Assembly: GCF_003334385.1 (NCBI RefSeq) | Contig: NZ_QOWN01000017.1 | Source of the DNA: Escherichia coli | GTDB lineage: Bacteria; Pseudomonadota; Gammaproteobacteria; Enterobacterales; Enterobacteriaceae | Strand: one strand, 5' to 3' | DNA: 64,000 bases | Shown here: one piece after another, positions 52,287 to 63,648 of the stretch | How positions within the stretch are numbered: the first letter of the stretch is position 1 | Layout of the letters: every line of letters begins with the position of its first letter | The notes under the pieces: generated by a model | Told to the model about the DNA's origin: nothing | The model's input: only the letters and a program-made list of their open reading frames with translations | The model's database searches: none | Position numbers and translations under genes: made by a program

Positions 52287-52979
52287 TTAAATGCCGAGTG
52301 GGAAAATATCATGGCCTTGTTCTTGCCAACTGGTGAGTTGCTGCTGTTGGGCGGAGGTTCGATTTTCACCGCACCACACCAGCAATGTACGGCCTTCGAA
52401 TAGTTCAGGGCGTAGTTGATTGAGCGAGTGGGCGAGGACATCAATGCGCCATCCTTGTTGACTGGCAATCCAGCCCTCCAGCCACAGACGGGTGGTATCC
52501 TGAATATTCCAGCCAACCACCAGCGCATCTTTACCCTGTTTTTTACGTGCCGAAGCCAGACAAATGGCGATGTAGTTGATCAGTACGCCGTCGAGGATCG
52601 CCAGCAGCGCCTGGAGAGTCGGTTGTTGGCACTGAAGCCGTCGGCGCAGAGGAATAAACAGATGTGTGGTGAGTGTCTGGGCGGGGTAATCCTGACCGCG
52701 CTCTTTGATCCACGTTCGCAGGCTATGTAGATTGCCGCTTTGCAGGTAAGTCAGTAATGTTTCTTGCTGATCGCGCCAGCCGTTCTGCACATCAACATTT
52801 TCATTACTGAGCAGCATTTTAACTTTGCTGACCTGCACGCCGTTGTCGATCCAGCGTTTGATCTCGCGGATCCGGTCAATATCGGCATCGTTGAACAGCC
52901 GATGACCGCCGTCTGTCCGTTGCGGTTTCAGCAATCCGTAACGCCTCTGCCACGCGCGTAACGTGACAGGGATTAAGGG
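52287..52979 (-). pseudogene. mlrA: mlrA (yehV) MerR-family curli regulator, 5'-truncated by prophage insertion
   Basis: Translation matches MlrA from ...PVTLRAWQRRYGLLKPQRTDGG to the C-terminus; the first ~17 codons are replaced by unrelated sequence with an in-frame stop at 53004..53006 and no start codon. Confidence 0.8.
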
Positions 52980-53008
52980 TAAACTAATTGATTTTGCAAG
53001 TTTTTATT

Positions 53009-54295
53009 TTACCCAGCTTTCTTATGGGGCATACATGGGACACTTTCAGATAGTCTTTTGTTAAGGAGTTCTATCTGTTCGTGATTGTTGTCTTTCATCC
53101 ATGCTCCGTAAACATTGAATACCATTTGTGCGTTTGTGTGGCCCATCTGGCTTGCGATAAAACTAGGATTAGCTCCAGCGGCAAGTGACCAGCATGCATA
53201 AGTATGCCTGGATTGGTACGATTTTCTGTGTCTCAGACCTGCGCGTTTTAAGATACTTGTCCATGACTCCCTGATGGAGTCAACCTTATAGTGCGGTCCG
53301 GAAAACTGCCGCTGTTTTATTACCTGAGGACTAAAAACAAAAGTGCATTTATGCACAGTACTTCTCCCATATTCCCTCTGCTTTACCTCTACAGAATGTT
53401 GCTTTCCAAGCATGGTCATTTCCGCCTGACTTTTAAGAGCATCAATAGCTGGTTGAACCAGATGAATTGTCCTTCCGGTGCCAGCATCGGTTTTTGGTGG
53501 AGTGAATTCGCCAAGTTTTGTATAATTCCTACGGATGGTTATAGTCCTTGCTTTAAGATCTATATCTTCCCATGCCAGCGATACCAGCTCCCCGTGACGA
53601 ATACCCGTGTATACAGCGAGAATCCACAGGTTTTTTGTTTGTTGATGACGGCAAGCCTCAATAAAACGAATAAATTCGTCACGGGTGAGAGGATCTGGTT
53701 TTACCTTGGACTTTTTTAAGGGGGCCAGACCGTTAAATGGGTTTCCTGAGGTATAACCATTATCTGTTGCAAATTGAAACATTCCAGCTATGGTTGTCAT
53801 ATAGTAGTTTACTGTGACCACTGAGCGCCCTTTTATGGAAGAAATCTTTCCATTAGAAAGCTTTTGGTAACCGGTCAACAAATCTCTCCTTGCGAAAAGT
53901 AAATCCTCTTTTGTTATGGATGAAACCAGTTTTTTCTCACCCAACATAGGCAACATGTTTTTAATTACTGACTGGTAACGATTAAGTGCATTCGCACAAA
54001 TCTCAATTTTCTTAAGGTCCAACCATTTTTCCGAAAGTGCCTTAACGGTTATCTCTCTTTTTCCCAGACCAAAGTGTTTCAGGTTAGGGGAATTAGGGAA
54101 CTGTGTAGCGTAGTCGAAACTCCCCATTCTGATTGCAAAACAAACGGAAGTGCGAAGTTCACCTGCGATCTTCCGGTTTTTGGCGGTGTCAGGAACACCG
54201 AGGTTTTCTCTGACACGTTTGCCATTATAGTGAAACCATATACGGAGTGATCCTCCATGGTTTTCAACGCCTGTCGGGTATGATACGTTACTCAT
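53009..54295 (-). CDS. int: Phage integrase (tyrosine recombinase)
   Basis: 428-aa ORF; GGGAGG SD; C-terminal catalytic region with conserved R...HxxR...Y pattern (RHTYACW, final Y in NVYGAWM). Confidence 0.85.
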   Translation of the reverse strand: MSNVSYPTGVENHGGSLRIWFHYNGKRVRENLGVPDTAKNRKIAGELRTSVCFAIRMGSFDYATQFPNSPNLKHFGLGKREITVKALSEKWLDLKKIEICANALNRYQSVIKNMLPMLGEKKLVSSITKEDLLFARRDLLTGYQKLSNGKISSIKGRSVVTVNYYMTTIAGMFQFATDNGYTSGNPFNGLAPLKKSKVKPDPLTRDEFIRFIEACRHQQTKNLWILAVYTGIRHGELVSLAWEDIDLKARTITIRRNYTKLGEFTPPKTDAGTGRTIHLVQPAIDALKSQAEMTMLGKQHSVEVKQREYGRSTVHKCTFVFSPQVIKQRQFSGPHYKVDSIRESWTSILKRAGLRHRKSYQSRHTYACWSLAAGANPSFIASQMGHTNAQMVFNVYGAWMKDNNHEQIELLNKRLSESVPCMPHKKAG

Positions 54296-54328
54296 TAAAC
54301 CTCCCAGACGTCCAGGAGCATTAACAGG

Positions 54329-54583
54329 TTAACCGGAACTTGCATTTTTGGCACCTGGTTGTTTCTGGTTTTCGATCCATCGCATAATTTCTTCGATGTT
54401 GTACAGGCATTCACTGTAATGCCCAGGATCACCTTCTACAGCGTAATGGCGGTATTCTTTTCCCTGCATCCATGACTTTCTTCTGGCCCGCTCGATGGTG
54501 CCGGGCTTTAGCCCTGTTGATGCAATAAGGACTCTCTCCGTACACCATTTGCTGGGGGTTATCTGATAGATGATTGTCTGCAT
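54329..54583 (-). CDS. Putative excisionase / small DNA-binding protein
   Basis: 84-aa basic ORF immediately upstream of int, same strand; resembles excisionase-like phage proteins (from memory). Confidence 0.5.
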   Translation of the reverse strand: MQTIIYQITPSKWCTERVLIASTGLKPGTIERARRKSWMQGKEYRHYAVEGDPGHYSECLYNIEEIMRWIENQKQPGAKNASSG

Positions 54584-54739: not shown

Positions 54740-54982
54740 TTACTTCCTTTTTATGGCTCGTAATTTTTTCAGGTGCTTTTCCTGCTCAGTGTCCGCGAGA
54801 ATTTTGCGGTACTCCTGGTGGTCAATATGTTCGAACAGGCAGTTTAACTCACCAATGCGTACCCGCCCGGATCGTCCGTCCACCCGTCGAAAGAACACTG
54901 AGTGCTCAGTGATGCGAGTAATCACCACGGGGTATCCGGCTCTGTCCGTGTATATCTGACCGCGTTGAATCAAAGCGAACAT
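54740..54982 (-). CDS. Hypothetical phage protein (80 aa)
   Basis: Track ORF 54740..55018; ATG at 54982 preceded by GGGGA. Confidence 0.45.
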   Translation of the reverse strand: MFALIQRGQIYTDRAGYPVVITRITEHSVFFRRVDGRSGRVRIGELNCLFEHIDHQEYRKILADTEQEKHLKKLRAIKRK

Positions 54983-55066: not shown

Positions 55067-56011
55067 TCATTGATTCACCTCCTGCCTGTCGTCCGGCATT
55101 CGCTCACTACAGCTTATCCAACCATCCGGAGTTACCGGAACTTGTGGAATGGCTGTCTGCTCTCGAACGTCATTAGGCGCTATAGGTTCTGCTGCCAACT
55201 GACTGGCATATTTGTTAATGGTAACGATAAGCTCTTGCTCAGCCTCATCCAGACAATCACCGATACCTCGCCTGTCACCGTCAAAATCATCGAAATCGGC
55301 ACGAATCCTGGCAACCTTCAGGATTGCGGACAACACCTCACTAGGAATTGCCGGATAGTTGGTTGACGTTTCCGCGATTTCCCGAAAATTATTGGTTGAC
55401 GAATTCTTGTTTTCCCGAAAGTTTCCGGACTGAAGCATGGCGGCGCGGCAGGCGTTCCATATTTCGGCAGCAATATCGCGCTCGCTATCGGTTAATTTGT
55501 ACGTTGAAACATAGCCAGAGAGCATTTCTACGTTTTCCGGAGTTGCTTCTTCAGGCACTACCGGTGCTGGCTCACGTATTACAGGCTCGCCCATGCGTGA
55601 TTCTCCCTGCGCCTCTTTCACCATGTGGTCATTGATTTGCTCCAGTCGCCGAACGTGCTCATCAGCTTCAAGCGCTCGCCGTTTCCAGATGGACAGGTCT
55701 TCACGAGCGCCCTGATATGCGTCACCGTATTCGCCGTTAAATACTGGCGCTGGCGGGGCGATGCGTCCAAGCAACTTATTTACCTCTTTCGCCATCGCGT
55801 CATATTTATCTAAATAGCGATTAGCTTCTAAGCAGACTCGGTGCATCTGATCTGAGTTAACTCGTTTAACTGGATCTGCTTCCAATGATGCCAGTGCAAT
55901 TCGTGCCAGTTCTTCCGCTTCTTCTGCTGGCAGTACAACGTTGCTACCCGGTCCGTATGTTTCGCGCCACTGCTTGATTGTCAGCAGTCGCCCTTTGGTA
56001 ATAGTGATCAT
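55067..56011 (-). CDS. Hypothetical phage protein (314 aa), shares RIALASLEA(D/E)PV motif with the 56428..56877 product
   Basis: Strong SD AAGAGGA; paralogous N-terminal motif; C-terminal GWISCSERMPDD resembles DUF551-type phage proteins (from memory). Confidence 0.6.
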   Translation of the reverse strand: MITITKGRLLTIKQWRETYGPGSNVVLPAEEAEELARIALASLEADPVKRVNSDQMHRVCLEANRYLDKYDAMAKEVNKLLGRIAPPAPVFNGEYGDAYQGAREDLSIWKRRALEADEHVRRLEQINDHMVKEAQGESRMGEPVIREPAPVVPEEATPENVEMLSGYVSTYKLTDSERDIAAEIWNACRAAMLQSGNFRENKNSSTNNFREIAETSTNYPAIPSEVLSAILKVARIRADFDDFDGDRRGIGDCLDEAEQELIVTINKYASQLAAEPIAPNDVREQTAIPQVPVTPDGWISCSERMPDDRQEVNQ

Positions 56012-56014
56012 GGG

Positions 56015-56203
56015 TTATCCTCTTAGCGCCACAACGCGCACTTCTGGGTCAAAGGATGATGAATTTTCATCTGTAATATCAGCAACATGACCTACAAAGT
56101 CGTTATACTCACACTCTGATTGTTCATAGCCCTGCCAGACCACGACAGCCTCAGGAGGCATTTTTCTGAGCTTGCTGATTAATTGCCTCACCGTCAGTGA
56201 CAT
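56015..56203 (-). CDS. Hypothetical small phage protein (62 aa)
   Basis: Perfect SD AAGGAG in an AAGGAGAGTGATATG junction; acidic C-terminus. Confidence 0.55.
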   Translation of the reverse strand: MSLTVRQLISKLRKMPPEAVVVWQGYEQSECEYNDFVGHVADITDENSSSFDPEVRVVALRG

Positions 56204-56204
56204 A

Positions 56205-56351
56205 TCACTCTCCTTTACCCGCTGCTTTCGCCTGCTCTTTAGCGAGTCGCTCCGCTTCTCTGAAATCCCAATCTACTCGATGTGCTATATCAATTGCAGA
56301 ACGCACGGTCCGTTCAATTAGCGTATCCAGGTTATCAATTGTCATTGCCAT
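56205..56351 (-). CDS. Possible small phage protein (48 aa)
   Basis: ORF below track threshold; helical charged sequence; stop TGA lies in the coupling junction to the next gene; no clear SD. Confidence 0.3.
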   Translation of the reverse strand: MAMTIDNLDTLIERTVRSAIDIAHRVDWDFREAERLAKEQAKAAGKGE

Positions 56352-56427
56352 ATCTGGATTGCGAGATAAAATCTCCGCCCTCTGAATCTGCTAGTTGTTG
56401 CAGGTTTCAAGTAATGAGTTAGCCATA

Positions 56428-56877
56428 TCACTCTCCTTTGATGCCAATGTTTACAGCCTGGCAAGCCTCTTTGAGTACCCAGTCAACAGCGTCTTTCCAT
56501 GCTCCGGTTTCGACTGGCGGATTTTCACGCTTAACCTGTTCATAGAAACGCACTGCTTTAATCAATCCTTCTGATGTCAGTGGCACAGGCGGGGCAGTGA
56601 ATAACGCCTGAATTTCATAGTTCGGTCTGTCGTTGCAATCCTCTTTTGTCGGTACATATTTCCAGTCACCAACCCACGAATCCCCCTGAGAGTCCGTAAC
56701 ACCTTTTTTCACGTAGCGATATCGCCACGCGACTGGCTCTGCTTCCAACGATGCCAGTGCGATACGAAACACATTGGCAAGCAGGCTGCTTGAAGATTGG
56801 TTATCGTGCGCCGGGTCGCTCAGGAAACCAGTGATGAATGATTTAATTTCCGCGTTTTCTCTGGTAATAGTGGTCAT
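56428..56877 (-). CDS. Hypothetical phage protein (149 aa), paralogous motif with 55067..56011
   Basis: SD GAGGA; start overlaps upstream stop (ATGA). Confidence 0.6.
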   Translation of the reverse strand: MTTITRENAEIKSFITGFLSDPAHDNQSSSSLLANVFRIALASLEAEPVAWRYRYVKKGVTDSQGDSWVGDWKYVPTKEDCNDRPNYEIQALFTAPPVPLTSEGLIKAVRFYEQVKRENPPVETGAWKDAVDWVLKEACQAVNIGIKGE

Positions 56878-57083
56878 TTATTAATCCTCAAAACTTTATG
56901 CCCGGGCGCAAAAGCACGTGTTTTGTCTTTGCTTATTCGCCAGCCATCCTTGCGCGCCTCTTTTGCACAGCCAGCCCATGACGTACCGATATACTCACCG
57001 AAGTCTGGCGTTTGATATTTACCATTTGTACACTGGCAACAATCACAGTAGAGATGCATGGTGTAACTTGCGGAAATAGCCAT
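56874..57083 (-). CDS. Small Cys-rich phage protein (69 aa; CDCCQC...C, possible zinc ribbon)
   Basis: Start at internal ATG of track ORF 56874..57191 with perfect SD (AAGGAGCCTGATATG); upstream gene stop sits in the SD spacer. Confidence 0.55.
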   Translation of the reverse strand: MAISASYTMHLYCDCCQCTNGKYQTPDFGEYIGTSWAGCAKEARKDGWRISKDKTRAFAPGHKVLRINK

Positions 57084-57084
57084 A

Positions 57085-57276
57085 TCAGGCTCCTTTAGTG
57101 CGTAAGTGGTTTTTCCAGCGGTTTTGCGCCGCGCTGCGCTTATCTTTGATTCCCTCTCTGGCAATTCCAGAATATAAGTACAACACCACACGGCGATTGC
57201 TAACTCTCAACCACTGGCTGGGATAGCAACGTCTGTATACACGGGAGATAAGCATCTTTGCTTTACGGTTTTTCAT
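57085..57276 (-). CDS. Small basic phage protein (63 aa), tandem paralogue A
   Basis: N-terminus MKNRKAKMLISR...WLRVSNRRV conserved with the adjacent upstream ORF at protein level; ATGA-coupled. Confidence 0.5.
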   Translation of the reverse strand: MKNRKAKMLISRVYRRCYPSQWLRVSNRRVVLYLYSGIAREGIKDKRSAAQNRWKNHLRTKGA

Positions 57277-57455
57277 CTTACTGCGTACCCTTTCTTCCGC
57301 CTGTTCTGTGACGCGCTAGGCTTTTTGCAACAACTGTGCCCCATCACCCCGCAACACCCCGTCAACCTCACTCGTCTGTTACTAATCCTCAACCATCGCC
57401 AGACCCCAACACCGTTTCTGCGAGCTAACAGAATTTTTGCCTTACGGTTTTTCAT
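57273..57455 (-). CDS. Small basic phage protein (60 aa), tandem paralogue B
   Basis: MKNRKAKILLAR...WLRISNRRV; SD AGGAGA; start overlaps upstream stop (ATGA). Confidence 0.5.
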   Translation of the reverse strand: MKNRKAKILLARRNGVGVWRWLRISNRRVRLTGCCGVMGHSCCKKPSASQNRRKKGYAVR

Positions 57456-57628
57456 CGTTTTGTTCTCCTGCGTTTCTTTGCTGCTCGTCGTGCCGCTGCA
57501 ATACCGGTATGGCGGCGCTTTGGTGCCGGGATGATGTTGTCAGCCATCAGGACATGTGGCTTTGCAATTAGCGCAGAAGCCCAAAAACGAGTCGGGTACG
57601 GTAACAAGCCGATACATGCCACACGCAT
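57452..57628 (-). CDS. Small basic phage protein (58 aa)
   Basis: Below track threshold; SD AGGAGG 6 nt before ATG; start overlaps the Ea22-like stop (TAATG) and stop overlaps next start (ATGA). Confidence 0.5.
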   Translation of the reverse strand: MRVACIGLLPYPTRFWASALIAKPHVLMADNIIPAPKRRHTGIAAARRAAKKRRRTKR

Positions 57629-58443
57629 TACTCACCTCCTTTGATGCGAATGCCTGCGGCGCGGATTGCAGCGATGACTTCAGAAACTTTGTATGCCATT
57701 ACCGTTTGGTAATCATCGTGAAAATCTGTTCGATGAAGCATGCTGCTACGTTCCGGGAGCGATATTTCCCGAGCATCCAGTTCCTTAACGCGTTCCTCCA
57801 GTTCGTAGACCCTGCATTGTTCTCTATCATCAATCAGATATAACCCAAGACATTCGCTTTCTACCCAACCGCCAAAATCATGATCGTAACGCTCACATGA
57901 AAACTCACCGTCACCGTCCTTTGTTGGAATGGTGTAACTATCTAATGTGCCACCATATGTCGGCACATTTCCCAATGTTGGATGCTCAATCCACATGAAA
58001 AATGCACGTCCGGTTATTGGGCAAATATCTGGCCGCCATTGGTTACGAACAGCCTTGGTTTCGGATAATTCTTCAGCGTGTTGTTTTACTTCCTCAAGCT
58101 CAACTCTCAGCTTCCCTACCGTTAGCGCAATATCCTCGTTCTCCTGATCGCGGCTTTTGATGTATTGCAGGTTTCTTTCCCGTTCATCCAGCAGTGCCAG
58201 CACGGTAGCCGGGTTAGCCTCTGCTATGAATTCAGCGTTTGCATAAGCCTGAGCATCTGTTTCAACCAGGCAGTTAACGTGACATTCTGCAATTACGCCA
58301 CCGGGTTCTCCTTTCCATTTTTGACAAACAAAAACTCCTGTTAAATTGCCGTGTTGGTTAACAGATGTATGCCCTACGATGTAGCTTCCTTTAGTTGCTT
58401 TCTCTGCCTTTTCACGCAGTGCCTGATAGTCAATCTTGCTCAC
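57628..58443 (-). CDS. Ea22-like phage protein (271 aa)
   Basis: GTG start with SD AAGGAGG; contains LLDERERNLQYIKSRDQENEDIALTVGKLRVELEE and C-terminal GIRIKGGE, which I recall as characteristic of lambda Ea22. Confidence 0.65.
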   Translation of the reverse strand: MSKIDYQALREKAEKATKGSYIVGHTSVNQHGNLTGVFVCQKWKGEPGGVIAECHVNCLVETDAQAYANAEFIAEANPATVLALLDERERNLQYIKSRDQENEDIALTVGKLRVELEEVKQHAEELSETKAVRNQWRPDICPITGRAFFMWIEHPTLGNVPTYGGTLDSYTIPTKDGDGEFSCERYDHDFGGWVESECLGLYLIDDREQCRVYELEERVKELDAREISLPERSSMLHRTDFHDDYQTVMAYKVSEVIAAIRAAGIRIKGGE

Positions 58444-58744
58444 TGGCAGCCTCCTTTGCCGGGATTTCTAACTTTTGAGTGGTTGTATCAAATTCAAACA
58501 ACTTAACCACGTCATCAAACAGGACATAATCACCATCAGGATTTTCAGTCATATCTGCGCCACAATCCTGACCGCACGAGTCGCAACCATCCATATCAAG
58601 CTCGTATCGCTTCAGGTTTGCGATATTTGATAAATTCAGCGCCAGTACAGCCAGGTCATAAACCTCTTCGGCAGTGACATCGCTGTTCAGTCCCATTTCA
58701 TGGCGATATATGATTTTTTCTACTCGTTGTTTTGTGATCGTCAT
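58430..58744 (-). CDS. Hypothetical phage protein (about 104 aa)
   Basis: Track ORF 58430..58768; ATG at 58744 (MTITKQR...); alternative start at 58696 possible; acidic, Cys-containing. Confidence 0.45.
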   Translation of the reverse strand: MTITKQRVEKIIYRHEMGLNSDVTAEEVYDLAVLALNLSNIANLKRYELDMDGCDSCGQDCGADMTENPDGDYVLFDDVVKLFEFDTTTQKLEIPAKEAASEQD

Positions 58745-59015
58745 TTTTCTCTTCACTCCGATATACAAGGATTACTACACCCCCTCTGCTGATTGCGCGA
58801 GCTGGATCCCCTGGTTCCATGCCGTCAATTCCGAAGGCTTCGGAAAACGCATTCATTGCCTTCTGGCGTTCATCCTGCTTACGGCGTTTATTCCATTTTT
58901 TCAGGAACAACAGCGACAGCCACCGTCCGCTGCAGAACACGATGTAAAAATAACCAAGGAGCGCCAGGCCGACATTCAGGGCCGTTTCTATGGTTAGTTG
59001 TGAGTCAGTTGCCAT
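58698..59015 (-). CDS. Small membrane protein (105 aa; one N-terminal TM helix, then basic stretch)
   Basis: Hydrophobic segment LNVGLALLGYFYIVFCSGRWLSLLFL followed by KKWNKRRKQDERQK; 3' end overlaps next gene so true stop/start uncertain. Confidence 0.4.
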   Translation of the reverse strand: MATDSQLTIETALNVGLALLGYFYIVFCSGRWLSLLFLKKWNKRRKQDERQKAMNAFSEAFGIDGMEPGDPARAISRGGVVILVYRSEEKNDDHKTTSRKNHISP

Positions 59016-59253
59016 TTCTTACCTGTTTAAGTAACTGGTTGAACATAACACTTAGGGGATTGCTGTATCCAAACGGCAGATTGTTTACGCAGTACAGAAT
59101 CATTTTGTTTTTTTCTCCAGTTCGTACTATTAACCCATTCCACAATAACCGTGATAATTCATTACTGATAGAAGTTGCGCTTCTTCCAAGTGCGAGGGAT
59201 ATATCTTCTCTACTGCAATCTGGATTTTCCTGGATATACTCGATAACGGTCAT
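59005..59253 (-). CDS. Putative winged-helix DNA-binding protein (82 aa)
   Basis: Track ORF 59005..59295; ATG at 59253 (MTVIEYIQENPDCSREDISLALGRSATSISNELSRLLWNGLIVRTG...) resembles a wHTH. Confidence 0.45.
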   Translation of the reverse strand: MTVIEYIQENPDCSREDISLALGRSATSISNELSRLLWNGLIVRTGEKNKMILYCVNNLPFGYSNPLSVMFNQLLKQVRNGN

Positions 59254-59263
59254 GTGGTCCCTT

Positions 59264-59845
59264 TTACTTAATATCTGTTTCGGATTGCATGCCATGAGTA
59301 TTCATTTCGTTAATAATTTCATCCAGAAGGATTTCAAGCCCTTCTCGACCCATATCTGAAAGAATGAAACCTTTATCAGGGGAAGTAGTGAGCATTTTCT
59401 GATAAAGAAACAGCGCTCTTCCCATTCCTTCAGTTTCGCCGTATTTTTGAATTAAATTCCATTCAATATACTGTTGTAAGGCAAATCGAATGGGGCCGGG
59501 ATATATCGTCATAAACCCATACATCCCGTTATATACCACGGCGTGTTCAGTTGTTCCGTGTTCATTCAGGATATCAATTGTGCCGTTCTTGTCTTCTTCT
59601 TCGTTGATGAATGTCGTCACATACAACCATCGCCACTGAGCAACCTTCATCTCAACCGGAAGTTTACCCAGTAATCCTGCTTCGTCGGCTTGCGCCAGAC
59701 ACTGAAGGATACGTAAACCTCGCACATTAGGAGTATCGAATTCTCCGGCATCCAGACGACGTATGGCGTCGTGATAATCAATCGTCATACTGCCAGTTCG
59801 TATACCATTGGCTGTTGCTTCAGCCTGGAATTCATCGTATTGCAT
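59264..59845 (-). CDS. Hypothetical phage protein (193 aa)
   Basis: SD GAGGA; no recognisable motifs. Confidence 0.55.
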   Translation of the reverse strand: MQYDEFQAEATANGIRTGSMTIDYHDAIRRLDAGEFDTPNVRGLRILQCLAQADEAGLLGKLPVEMKVAQWRWLYVTTFINEEEDKNGTIDILNEHGTTEHAVVYNGMYGFMTIYPGPIRFALQQYIEWNLIQKYGETEGMGRALFLYQKMLTTSPDKGFILSDMGREGLEILLDEIINEMNTHGMQSETDIK

Positions 59846-59850
59846 GATAT

Positions 59851-60039
59851 TTATTCCTCATCTTCATCTTCATCTGCTGGTGCAATAACGTCATATCCTG
59901 CCTTTTCTGCAATAAACAGGAATGTTGAAAGAGTTCCTACAAGTTCATCGTCATGAACATGGCGAATGAATATTACTTTCCCGTTTTTGATGGTCAGCAA
60001 TATTCTGGTTTGTTCGTGTTCTGCTGTTTTCTGATGCAT
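59851..60039 (-). CDS. Small phage protein with acidic tail (62 aa; ...APADEDEDEE)
   Basis: SD GGGAGA; stop 6 nt before next start. Confidence 0.5.
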   Translation of the reverse strand: MHQKTAEHEQTRILLTIKNGKVIFIRHVHDDELVGTLSTFLFIAEKAGYDVIAPADEDEDEE

Positions 60040-61422: not shown

Positions 61423-62112
61423 CTAACCAAATCTGTTTATGTTGAATGGTACTGATGAGATCACTTTAGACTGGATATAAAGCAGAGCTAACCCCTCTTT
61501 TTCGATGCTCCATGGTTGATAATTGGGGTTATCAGATAACACCATGATTTTGCTTCCAATTTTTTGAAGCCTTTTCACGTAGCATTCTCCATCAAAACAA
61601 AATGCATAAATACCATCGCCATCAAAATAAGTTACTGTCTTATCAAGAAAAAGAAGGTCGCCAGGTGAGATTGTGGGAGCCATACTGTCTCCTCTGGCGT
61701 TACCTATTTCTATATTTTTGAATGCCCGATTTCCAACAAGACGTCGGGCATATTCAGGATCAAGTTCTATTGAGCGCACTACATCTATCAAGTCACCACG
61801 GACATGAGTTCCATCACCGCAACTAAACTCAACATCAAGGACATTAAATACGACGCTATCTGTTCTTGTCTGGTGTTTCTCTTGCGAGGAAAAGGTTGGT
61901 GAGGAGTCTTCACCTAAGAACCAGGATTGTGGATAACCGCTAATCTCTGATAAATGCGCGAGCTTATCACTCCGTGGAAATGTTTTTCCTGTTGTCCAGT
62001 ACTGCACTGATTGCGCACTCACACCTAACTTGCGGGCCAGTTGAGCCTGAGTCCATCCTTTTGCTTTCAGCATCGCGGCTATTCGATTTTCCGTGTTTTT
62101 GACGTTCTTCAT
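61423..62112 (-). CDS. cI: CI-type prophage repressor (N-terminal HTH plus C-terminal S24 LexA-like autopeptidase), 229 aa
   Basis: ATG at 62112 (MKNVKNTENRIAAMLKAKGWTQAQLARKLGVSAQSVQYW); S24 motifs GDSMAPT (Ser) and YVKRL (Lys); divergent from Cro-like gene. Confidence 0.85.
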   Translation of the reverse strand: MKNVKNTENRIAAMLKAKGWTQAQLARKLGVSAQSVQYWTTGKTFPRSDKLAHLSEISGYPQSWFLGEDSSPTFSSQEKHQTRTDSVVFNVLDVEFSCGDGTHVRGDLIDVVRSIELDPEYARRLVGNRAFKNIEIGNARGDSMAPTISPGDLLFLDKTVTYFDGDGIYAFCFDGECYVKRLQKIGSKIMVLSDNPNYQPWSIEKEGLALLYIQSKVISSVPFNINRFG

Positions 62113-62245
62113 GACCAAATCCTGTGGGTTTCTTTACAAGGATAAATCTTTACTTGATTTTAGTGTATTCGATCCTTTTGTAACTTGCATGTTAATTTAA
62201 ACTTGATGTATTCTTGATTTATAAAGTTAATATTGGTGTTTTGTT

Positions 62246-62536
62246 ATGGAAGGAAATGATTACGACAAACTTCGTGCATTAATTGCGCAAAATGCCATAG
62301 CGCGAAATCTTGGTGTGACGCCGCAAGCGGTGAATCAGTGGTTTTCAAAAAGCACAATTCCTGCTCGTTTCGTTTTACGAGTATGTGAAGTAGTTGCATG
62401 GAAGGTTACGCCTCATGGCTTAAGGCCAGATCTTTATCCTCACCCTGAAGATGGAATTCCTAACTTGTTACGCAAAAGCCTAAATCCAAGTTCACCACAC
62501 AGAGCGGATGGAATACACGCAGGAGATAAACAATGA
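62246..62536 (+). CDS. cro: Cro-like HTH regulator (YdaS/DUF1019-like), 96 aa
   Basis: HTH NLGVTPQAVNQW; HGLRPDLYP motif; divergent to cI across a 133-bp AT-rich intergenic region. Confidence 0.7.
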   Translation: MEGNDYDKLRALIAQNAIARNLGVTPQAVNQWFSKSTIPARFVLRVCEVVAWKVTPHGLRPDLYPHPEDGIPNLLRKSLNPSSPHRADGIHAGDKQ

Positions 62537-63240: not shown

Positions 63241-63648
63241 AAAAAAGCCGGGAGTAACCCGGCTCACTCAACATCAATAACGGGGAGCTGTTTCGCATAA
63301 AACGGCTCCGAAACATCCAAGAACAGTTCTAAAGATATCAGCAGCTATATGATCATTTCAAGACCAAATATTGATTCTGCAATTCCGGGACGTTACACTG
63401 CTCAGGCACCTTATAAAGCGGGTGCCGGGGGTCGCAGCCCGGAATTGTCAACGGCGATATATGACGCGCCAGCGTCTTTTTTATCGTCCGCGCTCACGCA
63501 CGCCAGAATTATGGTGGGCTGGGCAGGGGAGCCGAAAGGCTCGCCGGTCTCCGTTGACGCCGGTACTGCGAACCCTGTTCAGTCTGCCACCAGTGAGTTT
63601 CGCAGCTCCGGTGGTGGAAGTTTTCCACAGTCAACGGAGGCTGCCATC

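What the first reader, a model, noticed from the sequence alone, without database searches (positions are those of the whole stretch)
56015..58443. Tightly translationally coupled array of small prophage genes with a repeated AAGGAG-NN-TGA-T-ATG junction and a tandem paralogue pair
Downstream of the Ea22-like gene, successive minus-strand ORFs are linked by overlapping stop/start signals: TAATG at 57628, ATGA at 57455, ATGA at 57276, AAGGAGCCTGATATG at 57083, ATGA at 56877, AAGGAGAGTGATATG at 56426 and at 56203. Two adjacent 60- and 63-aa basic proteins share MKNRKAK(I/M)L...WLR(I/V)SNRRV despite diverged DNA, implying selection on the peptide. A 58-aa basic ORF and a 48-aa ORF below the track cut-off fit the same coupling pattern. 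An 11-codon ORF (56391..56426) carries a perfect junction but terminates immediately, looking like a deletion scar or upstream micro-ORF.
Basis: seen in the sequence. Interest (0 to 1): 0.5.

Follow-up and report, generated by a model that had tools for sequence, protein, structure and literature searches.

The report
Coupled accessory-gene cassettes in a lambdoid prophage
This is an ordinary stretch of small, tightly packed accessory genes in the early-left operon of an E. coli lambda-like prophage; the puzzling 11-codon ORF is the front end of a normal 73-codon gene broken by a single stop mutation.

Summary
Every coordinate in the finding checks out.

The region is the variable ea22-to-xis part of the early-left "exo-xis" operon of a lambdoid prophage inserted next to mlrA. 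Each ORF belongs to a widespread PHROG family of unknown function. ORF lengths are conserved in relatives and dN/dS is 0.05-0.5, so these are real genes.

- **The 11-codon and 48-aa ORFs** are one 73-codon gene carrying a TGG→TAG mutation. It is intact in all relatives examined. It is neither a deletion scar nor a micro-ORF.
- **The 60/63-aa pair** is not a recent duplication. They are two old subtypes of one family (phrog_1380), which forms arrays of one to three copies. The C-terminal tail depends on position in the array.

The repeated 16-nt junction is a module boundary shared by unrelated gene families, in many-to-many combinations. This fits the known "short conserved boundary sequence" model of phage mosaicism, although the shared block is shorter than efficient homologous recombination needs.

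The same four-gene block is already annotated in phage phiV10. Protein functions remain unknown. Interest is low.

The parts
58430..58744 (-). Upstream neighbour gene (104 aa from its ATG). Its last 14 nt overlap the GTG start of the Ea22-like gene.
   Evidence: phrog_3126, E 1.9e-63. The overlap is seen.
57628..58443 (-). Ea22-like gene, 271 aa, GTG start. It ends ...IRIKGGE*, so its last codons carry the Shine-Dalgarno sequence for the next gene.
   Evidence: phrog_250, E 2.3e-70. The gene at the same position in the near-identical cassettes of E. coli EC2 and SCU-104 (98% and 97% amino-acid identity) is named 'ead/Ea22-like family protein' by RefSeq. dN/dS 0.50.
57452..57628 (-). 58-aa basic protein gene (pI 12.0). 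Its start shares one base with the Ea22-like stop (TAATG).
   Evidence: phrog_13831, E 1.3e-41. 24 of 25 unique orthologues are 58 codons long, dN/dS 0.22. RefSeq WP_001261532.1.
57273..57455 (-). phrog_1380 copy 1 (60 aa, subtype F). This is the internal array position: tail ...QNRRKKGYAVR* with an ATGA overlap into copy 2.
   Evidence: phrog_1380, E 6e-29. Array grammar. Not annotated by PGAP in EC2 or SCU-104, but annotated as PhiV10p50 in phage phiV10.
57085..57276 (-). phrog_1380 copy 2 (63 aa, subtype A). This is the terminal array position: tail ...QNRWKNHLRTKGA* followed by the 16-nt junction.
   Evidence: phrog_1380, E 9.7e-33. 194 viral-contig relatives. Family dN/dS 0.48. Grammar.
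57081..57095 (-). Junction 1, AAGGAGCCTGATATG. It holds the SD inside the K-G-A codons, the TGA stop, one T, then the ATG of the next gene.
56874..57083 (-). 69-aa Cys-rich protein gene. The conserved family motif is LYCDCxxC...GW.I...(C).APGH, so it may bind a metal.
56428..56877 (-). 149-aa modular protein gene with an ATGA overlap at its start. It has an MTTIT...ALASLEAEPV N-terminal module and an Ea22-like C-terminal tail ...VNIGIKGE*.
   Evidence: phrog_660, E 4e-56. Residues 114-148 also match the C-terminal part of phrog_250. dN/dS 0.42.
56424..56438 (-). Junction 2, AAGGAGAGTGATATG
56205..56426 (-). One 73-codon gene (phrog_10585) inactivated by a nonsense mutation.
   Evidence: The two pieces are in the same frame, 75 nt apart. 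The 48-aa piece matches profile positions 26-66 of 66. Intact 73-aa genes sit at the same junction in EC332, SF-088, the A3176 plasmid and ETEC1721. dN/dS 0.05.
56391..56393 (-). Premature TAG. It is TGG (Trp12) in all four aligned relatives, so this is a single G-to-A change.
   Evidence: Alignment A1, column 68. This segment, TAG included, is 100% identical in the five near-identical E. coli prophages listed (six records score >=99%). It also recurs in viral contigs L009-L011.
56201..56215 (-). Junction 3, AAGGAGAGTGATATG. Together with junction 2 it forms a 16-nt direct repeat flanking the 73-codon cassette.
56015..56203 (-). 62-aa acidic protein gene (pI 4.7)
   Evidence: phrog_6161, E 7.2e-21. 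Present in 66 complete E. coli genomes. In O26 RM8426 it follows an Ea22-like C-terminus directly, through AAAGGAGAGTGAGATG.
55067..56011 (-). 314-aa modular protein gene. Its start lies 3 nt after the previous stop (TAAcccATG).
   Evidence: phrog_14306, E 2.4e-53, and phrog_60. RefSeq names the equivalent gene a DUF551 domain-containing protein. The first ~50 residues recur at ~92% identity in front of different bodies.

Best explanation
This is the variable, ea22-to-xis part of the early-left (pL-side) accessory operon, the 'exo-xis' or ea region, of a lambdoid prophage integrated beside mlrA/yehV.

Shown:
- It holds about ten small genes, all on the int/xis strand.
- Each belongs to a widespread phage protein family of unknown function and is kept under purifying selection.
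- The genes are packed so that each stop codon overlaps the next start or lies 1-3 nt from it. The Shine-Dalgarno sequence of each gene lies inside the last codons of the gene before it.

Inferred: ribosomes finishing one gene re-initiate on the next, so one long early transcript expresses every cassette whatever its neighbours are.

Three junctions use the same 16 nt, AAAGGAGnnTGAtATG, which makes the upstream protein end K-G-E/A. Across relatives this 16-mer marks the boundary where unrelated gene families are joined in many different combinations.

Inferred: it acts as a portable stop, ribosome-binding-site and start adapter. Together with the conserved ends of the phrog_1380 genes, it supplies short homology at which cassettes are reshuffled.

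The 60- and 63-aa genes are two old subtypes of phrog_1380. This family forms arrays of 1-3 copies in which the last ~16 codons depend on position. An internal copy ends ...GYAVR* with an ATGA overlap. The last copy ends ...TKGE/A* followed by the 16-mer.

The 11-codon and 48-aa ORFs are one 73-codon gene broken by a recent TGG-to-TAG mutation in this prophage lineage.
For: Context:
- Integrase lies at 53009-54295 and excisionase at 54329-54583. A CI-like repressor lies at 61423-62118 and a Cro-like gene at 62246-62536.
- The near-identical cassette in E. coli EC2 sits between early-left genes and xisR/int/mlrA. In SCU-104 it directly follows gam-bet-exo...TraR/DksA-Ea22.

The ORFs are real genes:
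- All of them hit PHROGs, with E-values from 1e-21 to 1e-70.
- ORF lengths are preserved and dN/dS is 0.05-0.50 across 7-59 unique orthologues per gene.

Coupling signals:
- Gaps are -47 to +5 nt over 13 genes. Within the finding (eleven starts, 58443 to 56011, counting both phrog_1380 copies) SD duplex energies are -4.5 to -12.9 kcal/mol.
- The consensus scan found no terminator-like site on the minus strand between 55000 and 58500. The nearest are weak matches at 54911 and 58933.

The junction as a module boundary:
- The relaxed motif occurs 110 times on the coding strand and 0 times on the other strand in 633 kb of related loci.
- It joins 12 left families to 11 right families in 25 combinations.
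- Homology breaks between junction contexts peak at the junction (58 pairs) and at the neighbouring gene borders. None fall more than about 50 nt inside the flanking genes.
- The 73-codon gene is flanked by the 16-mer on both sides while its neighbours differ.
- The 62-aa gene follows an Ea22 C-terminus through the same junction in O26 RM8426.

Array grammar:
- 49 unique arrays hold 1 copy (29), 2 copies (19) or 3 copies (1).
- Every internal copy carries the AVR tail, and the last copy of every multi-copy array carries the KGx tail.
- Subtypes B and F occur with either tail, according to position.
- The ends are conserved at synonymous sites: pS is 0.19 at the head and 0.13 at the tail, against 0.60 in the body.

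Nonsense mutation.
Against: - No expression data exist for this prophage, so coupling is inferred from sequence only.
- Between contexts unrelated on both sides, the exact shared block is short: median 13 nt, most often 18 nt. This is below the minimal efficient pairing segment reported for Red-beta (23-27 bp) and for RecA (31-34 bp) (PMC3945230). Recombination at the 16-mer alone would therefore be inefficient.
- The exact 16-mer also sits between two ORFs in many unrelated environmental phage contigs. Convergent selection for a good stop/SD/start arrangement can therefore produce it.
- The comparison set was collected around phrog_1380 and is redundant. The counts are not an unbiased census.
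- The functions of all the proteins are unknown. There were no Pfam, NCBIfam, PADLOC or PDB matches.
Confidence: 0.8

Rival explanations
1. The repeated junction is convergent. Each gene pair independently evolved a strong Shine-Dalgarno sequence, a TGA stop and a closely spaced ATG, because that arrangement is optimal for re-initiation. Mosaic joints would then arise by random illegitimate recombination, with selection keeping only those at gene borders (the Hendrix model). On this reading the 16-mer plays no part in recombination.
For: - The exact 16-mer lies between two ORFs of at least 35 codons in 106 of 126 occurrences in viral contigs. Many of these are singletons with unrelated flanking proteins from environmental samples.
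- The shared exact block is only ~13-18 nt, below the reported minimal pairing segments (PMC3945230).
- The same operon also uses other coupling solutions: TAATG, ATGA and TAAcccATG.
Against: - Within the enteric lambdoid set, the same codons (AAA GGA GAG), the same stop (TGA in 34 of 35 terminal phrog_1380 copies) and the same single-T spacer recur across several apparently unrelated upstream families. SD function alone would allow many alternatives.
- The ~50 nt before the junction in phrog_1380 are nearly invariant at synonymous sites across subtypes whose bodies have pS 0.60. That points to shared descent of the DNA rather than convergence.
- The many-to-many combination matrix is what exchange at a common linker predicts.
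Confidence: 0.3
2. One reading: the 11-codon ORF is a deletion scar or an upstream regulatory micro-ORF, and the 48-aa ORF is an independent coupled gene.
For: - The 11-codon ORF has a perfect junction and Shine-Dalgarno sequence.
- PGAP annotates the 48-aa ORF as a hypothetical protein in EC2.
- Other phages have 4- and 7-codon stubs after the same junction.
Against: - The alignment with four relatives has no gaps from the junction through the whole gene and differs at the stop only by TGG versus TAG.
- The two ORFs are in frame.
- The 48-aa piece covers only profile positions 26-66 of phrog_10585.
- Six of the seven unique sequences of this gene are full length: 73 codons in five and 75 in one.
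- No Shine-Dalgarno sequence lies 5-12 nt upstream of the ATG at 56351.
Confidence: 0.02
3. The 60/63-aa pair is a recent in-situ tandem duplication that is now diverging.
For: The two genes are adjacent, share a family, and have nearly identical first 21 nt.
Against: - Synonymous sites are saturated between the two copies (pS 0.78), with 51% amino-acid identity.
- Both subtypes occur alone or paired with other subtypes in other phages: F alone, A alone, and E>A, C>A, B>A, G>A, E>B>A.
- The same F>A pair is already present in phage phiV10.
Confidence: 0.05
4. The small ORFs are chance ORFs and the region is non-coding or regulatory.
For: - The ORFs are short (58-73 aa) and have no Pfam or NCBIfam match.
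- One of them is skipped by PGAP.
Against: - They give strong PHROG matches.
- ORF lengths are conserved across diverged relatives, and dN/dS is below 1 in 99-100% of pairs.
- Differences between the two paralogues fall mostly at third codon positions: 22, 15 and 36 at positions 1, 2 and 3.
- No Rfam family matches the region.
Confidence: 0.02

Closest known systems
[quoted passage not shown]
   Same: - Same position and strand, in the early-left operon between ea22 and xis/int.
- It begins with an Ea22-like gene and consists of a variable number of small ORFs of unknown function, with full or partial duplications (PMC8614690).
- VT2-Sakai carries homologues of the phrog_1380 and phrog_926 genes downstream of its ea22. 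These correspond to its orf8/orf7 region.
   Different: - Lambda annotates ea8.5 and orf55 in this segment. No gene by those names is annotated in the near-identical E. coli cassettes, but no direct comparison with lambda was run.
- The conserved orf60a-orf63-orf61-orf73 block is not annotated upstream of the Ea22-like gene in the near-identical EC2 prophage.
- Lambda orf60a and orf63 are different genes from the 60- and 63-aa ORFs here. In VT2-Sakai both sets are present, on opposite sides of ea22.
Phage phiV10 genes PhiV10p49-p52 (NC_007804)
   Same: - The same four genes occur in the same order: the 58-aa gene, phrog_1380 subtype F, phrog_1380 subtype A, and the 69-aa gene.
- Nucleotide identity is ~96%.
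- The GenBank note already records that p51 resembles p50, so the paralogue pair has been noticed before.
   Different: - phiV10 is an epsilon15-like podovirus (Uetakevirus).
- There the block lies downstream of the replication genes rather than next to xis/int.
- Its p51 is called as a 90-aa ORF from an upstream start.
'Short conserved boundary sequences' model of lambdoid mosaicism (Clark et al. 2001 on HK620; Susskind & Botstein 1978, as cited in PMC3029335)
   Same: A short sequence is conserved at module borders, with different modules on either side in different genomes. Homology breaks coincide with it.
   Different: - I could not read the original paper, so I do not know whether this particular 16-mer was among its examples.
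- Here the boundary sequence is also the stop/SD/start signal and encodes a K-G-E protein tail.
- At 13-18 nt of exact identity it is shorter than the reported minimal pairing segments.
Classical translational coupling by overlapping stop/start codons (for example ATGA/TGATG overlaps in bacterial and phage operons; from general knowledge)
   Same: There are stop/start overlaps of 1 or 4 nt, or gaps of 1-3 nt, and the Shine-Dalgarno sequence lies inside the upstream coding sequence.
   Different: Nothing differs mechanistically. Coupling itself has not been measured here.

Membership tests
Lambdoid early-left 'exo-xis / ea' accessory region | Lies between the immunity/recombination genes and xis-int, on the same strand as int and xis | tested here: met
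   int at 53009-54295 and xis at 54329-54583, both on the minus strand. CI-like repressor at 61423-62118. The near-identical cassette in SCU-104 follows gam-bet-exo.
Lambdoid early-left 'exo-xis / ea' accessory region | Contains an Ea22-like gene followed by a variable set of small ORFs | tested here: met
   phrog_250, E 2.3e-70. RefSeq names the gene at this position in near-identical cassettes (97-98% amino-acid identity) ead/Ea22-like. The variability of the downstream set was mapped in 86 loci. By sequence the protein does not match any PDB chain; the solved lambda Ea22 domain (PMC10834534) should be in that set.
Lambdoid early-left 'exo-xis / ea' accessory region | Transcribed early from pL and dispensable for lytic growth | not testable with these tools
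   There is only a promoter-like site at 61358-61330, and no terminator-like site on the minus strand between 55000 and 58500.
Translationally coupled operon | Stop and start codons overlap or lie within a few nt, with the SD inside the upstream gene | tested here: met
   Gaps of -14, -1, -4, -4, +1, -4, +1, +1 and +3 nt. SD duplex energies are -4.5 to -12.9 kcal/mol.
Translationally coupled operon | Downstream translation depends on translation of the upstream gene | not testable with these tools
   This needs reporter fusions or ribosome profiling.
Short conserved boundary (linker) sequence at mosaic joints | The same short sequence occurs at joints whose flanking modules differ between genomes | tested here: met
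   12 left by 11 right families in 25 combinations. 36 distinct pairs of C-terminal and N-terminal peptides.
Short conserved boundary (linker) sequence at mosaic joints | Homology breakpoints coincide with the sequence | tested here: met
   The breakpoint profile peaks at +5 to +20 nt, with 53-58 pairs. Between about 50 nt from the junction and the next gene border on each side the count is 0-1.
Short conserved boundary (linker) sequence at mosaic joints | Recombination actually takes place within the sequence | not testable with these tools
   The shared exact block is 13-18 nt, below the Red-beta minimal pairing segment of 23-27 bp (PMC3945230).
phrog_1380 (small basic phage protein, function unknown) | Full-length match to the family profile | tested here: met
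   The 60-aa ORF scores E 6e-29 and the 63-aa ORF E 9.7e-33. Both cover profile positions 1 to 60 or 61 of 62.
phrog_10585 (73-aa protein) | Intact full-length ORF | tested here: not met
   An in-frame TAG at codon 12. Only profile positions 26-66 are covered by the 48-aa remnant.
Recent tandem gene duplication | Adjacent copies with low synonymous divergence that are each other's closest relatives | tested here: not met
   pS is 0.78 (saturated). The subtypes are found apart and with other partners.
Upstream regulatory micro-ORF / leader peptide | The short ORF is conserved as a short ORF in relatives | tested here: not met
   In relatives the same start opens a gene of 73 codons, or 75 in one case.
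Deletion scar | Sequence is missing compared with relatives | tested here: not met
   The alignment has no gaps across the gene.
Anti-phage defence system | Match to a known defence protein model | tested here: not met
   No PADLOC hit for any of the 10 proteins at E<=0.01.

The most novel reading that the evidence does not exclude
The conserved 16-nt stop/SD/start adapter, together with the DNA-level conserved ~21-nt head and ~50-nt tail of phrog_1380 genes, may be more than a by-product of translation. It could be a standardised linker system. Such linkers would let lambdoid, epsilon15-like and plasmid-borne phages swap, insert, delete and multiply small accessory cassettes by short-homology recombination, while always restoring a working translational junction. 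This would be a homology-based counterpart of integron cassette arrays. The phrog_1380 arrays of 1-3 copies, with tails set by position, would be its clearest product.
Probability: 0.3. Interest if true: 0.45.

Novelty: new member of a known kind. Interest (0 to 1): 0.2.

Why it matters
The direct value is modest.
- **Annotation fixes.** A 73-codon gene is split by a nonsense mutation yet called as a 48-aa protein. A real 60-aa gene is missed by the RefSeq pipeline in near-identical genomes.
- **Wide distribution.** Parts of this cassette set occur in more than half of complete E. coli genomes (2884 of 5426), yet every protein in it is still of unknown function.
- **Mosaic joints.** The junction and the array grammar give a concrete, testable example for an old question. 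Are mosaic joints in temperate phages made at short conserved boundary sequences, or by random joining followed by selection?

Tried and rejected
**Database searches with no result**
- Pfam on six of the proteins gave no hit.
- NCBIfam gave only one noise-level match.
- PADLOC gave no hit.
- PDB sequence searches with the phrog_1380 profile, the Ea22-like protein and the 69-aa protein gave no hit.
- Rfam has no family in the region.

**Structure prediction**

**Homologue search**
- The homologue search for the 63-aa protein returned only 'hypothetical protein' entries from Escherichia, Salmonella, Citrobacter and Phytobacter.

**Calls that failed or were wasted**
- The first collection scan for the 16-mer failed for lack of a slot and was repeated.
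- One literature search, on ead/eaA/P22, was too unspecific to be useful.
- Clark et al. 2001 is not held in the library.

**Readings considered and rejected**
- Deletion scar.
- Micro-ORF.
- Recent duplication.
- Chance ORFs.
- Defence system.


Full report
**1. The observation**

Reading the minus strand of 55500-59500 and listing ORFs, then extracting each junction by script, confirmed every coordinate in the finding.
- The Ea22-like gene (58443..57628, GTG start) ends in TAA. The last A of that stop is the first base of the ATG at 57628.
- ATGA overlaps join the genes at 57455, 57276 and 56877.
- AAGGAGCCTGATATG leads into the ATG at 57083.
- AAGGAGAGTGATATG leads into the ATGs at 56426 and 56203.

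AAGGAGNNTGATATG has three matches in the 64-kb window, even allowing one mismatch. All three lie in this region on the minus strand. Dinucleotide shuffles predict 0.07 matches, and none of 100 shuffles reached three.

The 58-, 60- and 63-aa products are strongly basic, with pI 12.0, 11.9 and 11.6.

The tight packing is wider than the finding states. Thirteen consecutive genes between 60039 and 55067 are separated by -47 to +5 nt. Every start inside the finding has a Shine-Dalgarno-like sequence within the preceding gene, with duplex energies of -4.5 to -12.9 kcal/mol.

**2. What the region is**

The window carries the following on the minus strand:

| Feature | Coordinates |
|---|---|
| Host yehW/X/Y-side genes | to the left of the integrase |
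| Integrase | 53009-54295 |
| Excisionase | 54329-54583 |
| The gene array | 55067-60039 |
| CI-like repressor | 61423-62118 |

A divergent Cro-like gene lies at 62246-62536.

Megablast against complete E. coli genomes found the whole 2.4-kb cassette at 99.3% identity or better in six genomes. Parts of it occur in 2884 of 5426 genomes.
- In strain EC2 the cassette lies between early-left genes and xisR, int and mlrA.
- In SCU-104 it directly follows gam, bet, exo and a TraR/DksA (orf73-type) gene.

This is therefore the part of the lambdoid early-left operon known as the exo-xis region. [quoted passage not shown] **3. The ORFs are real genes**

Each ORF matches a PHROG family of unknown function:

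| Gene | PHROG family |
|---|---|
| Ea22-like | phrog_250 |
| 58-aa | phrog_13831 |
| 60-aa and 63-aa | phrog_1380 |
| 69-aa | phrog_926 |
| 149-aa | phrog_660 |
| 48-aa | phrog_10585 |
| 62-aa | phrog_6161 |
| 314-aa | phrog_14306 / phrog_60 |

I fetched 80 viral-contig loci around relatives of the 63-aa protein, mapped all the cassette proteins on them, and computed Nei-Gojobori dN/dS on the unique orthologues.

| Gene | Median dN/dS |
|---|---|
| 58-aa | 0.22 |
| phrog_1380 | 0.48 |
| 69-aa | 0.14 |
| 149-aa | 0.42 |
| 73-codon gene | 0.05 |
| Ea22-like | 0.50 |

ORF lengths are preserved: 24 of 25 unique sequences for the 58-aa gene, 18 of 21 for the 69-aa gene, and 5 of 7 at 73 codons for the 73-codon gene. 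The one exception is described next.

**4. The 11-codon ORF and the 48-aa ORF**

The 48-aa ORF matched only positions 26-66 of the 66-position phrog_10585 profile. Its ATG at 56351 is exactly 75 nt, or 25 codons, downstream of the ATG at 56426, in the same frame.

This segment occurs in 52 E. coli genomes. In four relatives I fetched (EC332, SF-088, an A3176 plasmid and ETEC1721), RefSeq annotates an intact 73-aa gene starting at the same junction.

The DNA alignment has no gaps inside the gene. At codon 12 it shows TGG in all four relatives and TAG in the window.

The two ORFs are therefore the halves of one gene carrying a W12-to-amber nonsense mutation. This is not a deletion scar or a micro-ORF.

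The same TAG is present in the near-identical E. coli prophages and in viral contigs L009-L011. It is thus a real, inherited and apparently recent mutation. There is no Shine-Dalgarno sequence at a suitable distance before the ATG at 56351. Whether the 48-aa remnant is made by re-initiation cannot be decided here.

**5. The paralogue pair**

The 60- and 63-aa proteins share 28 of 55 aligned residues. Their DNA is 56% identical. pN is 0.35 and pS is 0.78 (saturated), and differences by codon position are 22, 15 and 36.

The pair is not a local duplication, however. Clustering the family gave seven subtypes. A census of 49 unique arrays gave 29 single copies, 19 doubles and one triple, in many subtype combinations.

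The arrays follow a strict grammar:
- Every non-terminal copy ends ...QNRRKKGYAVR*, with an ATGA overlap into the next copy.
- The last copy of every multi-copy array, and most single copies, ends ...QNRWKNHLRTKG(E/D/A)*, followed by TGAtATG.
- Subtypes B and F occur with either tail, depending on position.

The tail therefore travels with the downstream junction, not with the gene body.

Between the A and B/F subtypes, synonymous divergence differs sharply along the gene (codon tables):

| Part of the gene | pS |
|---|---|
| Body | 0.60 |
| First seven codons | 0.19 |
| Last 16 codons | 0.13 |

The gene ends are therefore conserved as DNA.

The same F-then-A pair, flanked by the 58-aa and 69-aa genes, is annotated in phage phiV10 as PhiV10p49-p52. 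A note there records that p51 resembles p50. PGAP nevertheless omits the 60-aa copy in EC2 and SCU-104.

**6. The repeated junction**

- **Strand bias.** In the 86 loci plus the window segment (633 kb), the relaxed motif A[AG]GGA[GA]nnTGAT[AG]TG occurs 110 times on the coding strand and never on the other strand.
- **Partners.** It links upstream proteins of several families. These are Ea22-type ...IRIKGE, phrog_1380 ...HLRTKGE, the 149-aa type ...NIGIKGE, the 73-aa type ...AAGKGE, and ...MLQGKGx and ...LRSNKGE types. It links them to at least ten different downstream genes, in 36 peptide-level combinations.
- **Combinations at DNA level.** Clustering the flanks by DNA gave 12 left families, 11 right families and 25 combinations.
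- **Breakpoints.** Homology breaks between pairs of junction contexts peak at the junction itself, with 53-58 pairs at +5 to +20 nt. Smaller peaks fall about 45 nt upstream (the phrog_1380 tail switch) and at the neighbouring gene borders near -185 and +230 nt. Between about 50 nt from the junction and those borders the count is 0-1.
- **Cassette flanked by a repeat.** The 73-codon gene carries the 16-mer on both sides while its neighbours differ between genomes.
- **Another partner for the 62-aa gene.** In E. coli O26 RM8426 it follows an Ea22-type C-terminus through AAAGGAGAGTGAGATG.

This is the pattern proposed as 'short conserved boundary sequences' for lambdoid mosaicism. It is attributed to Clark et al. 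2001 and Susskind & Botstein 1978 in PMC3029335.

Three cautions apply.
In 106 of 126 occurrences the 16-mer lies between two ORFs, including many singletons with unrelated flanks from environmental samples. The arrangement can therefore arise by convergence.
- Between contexts unrelated on both sides, the exact shared block has a median of 13 nt and is most often 18 nt. That is below the minimal efficient pairing segments quoted for Red-beta (23-27 bp) and RecA (31-34 bp) (PMC3945230).
- My locus set was gathered around one gene family and is redundant.

**7. How it most likely works**

Shown:
- The genes are conserved, they are packed stop-to-start, and each Shine-Dalgarno sequence lies in the last codons of the preceding gene.
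- The consensus scan found no terminator-like site on the coding strand between 55000 and 58500; the nearest are weak matches at 54911 and 58933. A promoter-like site at 61358-61330 lies just downstream of the repressor gene's terminator-like hairpin.

Inferred:
- One early-left transcript is translated by termination and re-initiation from gene to gene.
- Each cassette carries at its 3' end the ribosome-binding site for whatever follows, so any order of cassettes remains expressed.
- The uniform junction, and the longer conserved ends of phrog_1380 genes, provide short homology at which cassettes are exchanged, lost or multiplied.
- By analogy with lambda and Phi24B exo-xis genes, which shift the balance between lysis and lysogeny (PMC8614690, PMC10789677), the products probably modulate early development or host physiology. 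No protein here has an assignable function.

**8. Function searches that gave nothing**

- Pfam, NCBIfam and PADLOC gave no usable hit.
- PDB sequence searches gave no hit.

**9. Verdict**

The thing observed is a normal, already catalogued kind of prophage region.

The useful corrections are the nonsense-mutated 73-codon gene and the nature of the paralogue pair. The modest addition is the junction and tail grammar, which gives a clean example for the boundary-sequence model of mosaicism. Interest is low.

Noticed in passing
window 63406-63594 (+): Rfam gathering-level matches to isrK Hfq-binding RNA (63406-63482, 58.7 bits) and C4 antisense RNA (63507-63594, 78.8 bits). This is a P1/P7-type antisense immunity module, sitting just right of the cI/cro region of this prophage.
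   Followed up: no
window 57273-57455 (-); L001 6989-7171; L002 3989-4171: RefSeq/PGAP leaves the 60-aa phrog_1380 copy unannotated in the near-identical E. coli EC2 and SCU-104 prophages. Family membership, array grammar and the phiV10 annotation all support it as a gene.
   Followed up: yes
L111, L132, L157 (viral contigs): Other phages have 4- and 7-codon stubs (MSTG*, MSRNTGL*) directly after the same perfect 16-nt junction behind an Ea22-type C-terminus. They may be further cases of truncated cassettes like the one in the window.
   Followed up: no
window 56874-57083 (-); alignment A3: The 69-aa protein family (phrog_926) is broad, with 134 clusters at 50% identity. It has a conserved Cys/His pattern, LYCDCxxC...C.APGH or CPxC, that suggests a small metal-binding protein. 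The window copy has Ala where most members have the fourth Cys. One representative (P0067, 134 aa) contains the domain twice.
   Followed up: partly
window 55067-56011, 56428-56877, 58430-58744 (-): Three otherwise different proteins start with M-x-T-I-T-(K/R). The first two also carry the (R)IALASLEA(E/D)PV motif about 35-45 residues in. The first ~50 residues of the 314-aa protein recur at ~92% identity in front of different bodies in many loci. Mosaic breaks therefore also occur inside genes, at domain borders.
   Followed up: partly
one search hit table; L005 (92.8-kb plasmid of E. coli A3176): Parts of the cassette occur at 646 places on plasmids of roughly 90-100 kb. The L005 plasmid stretch carries the same Ea22-like, 58-aa, phrog_1380 and 73-aa cassette genes in the same layout. 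The cassettes also occur in the epsilon15-like phage phiV10. They are therefore shared across different phage types.
   Followed up: no
window 52950-54300; L001 10149-12157: The prophage integrase abuts mlrA (yehV). From general knowledge, this attachment site is also used by Stx1 prophages of E. coli O157:H7.
   Followed up: no
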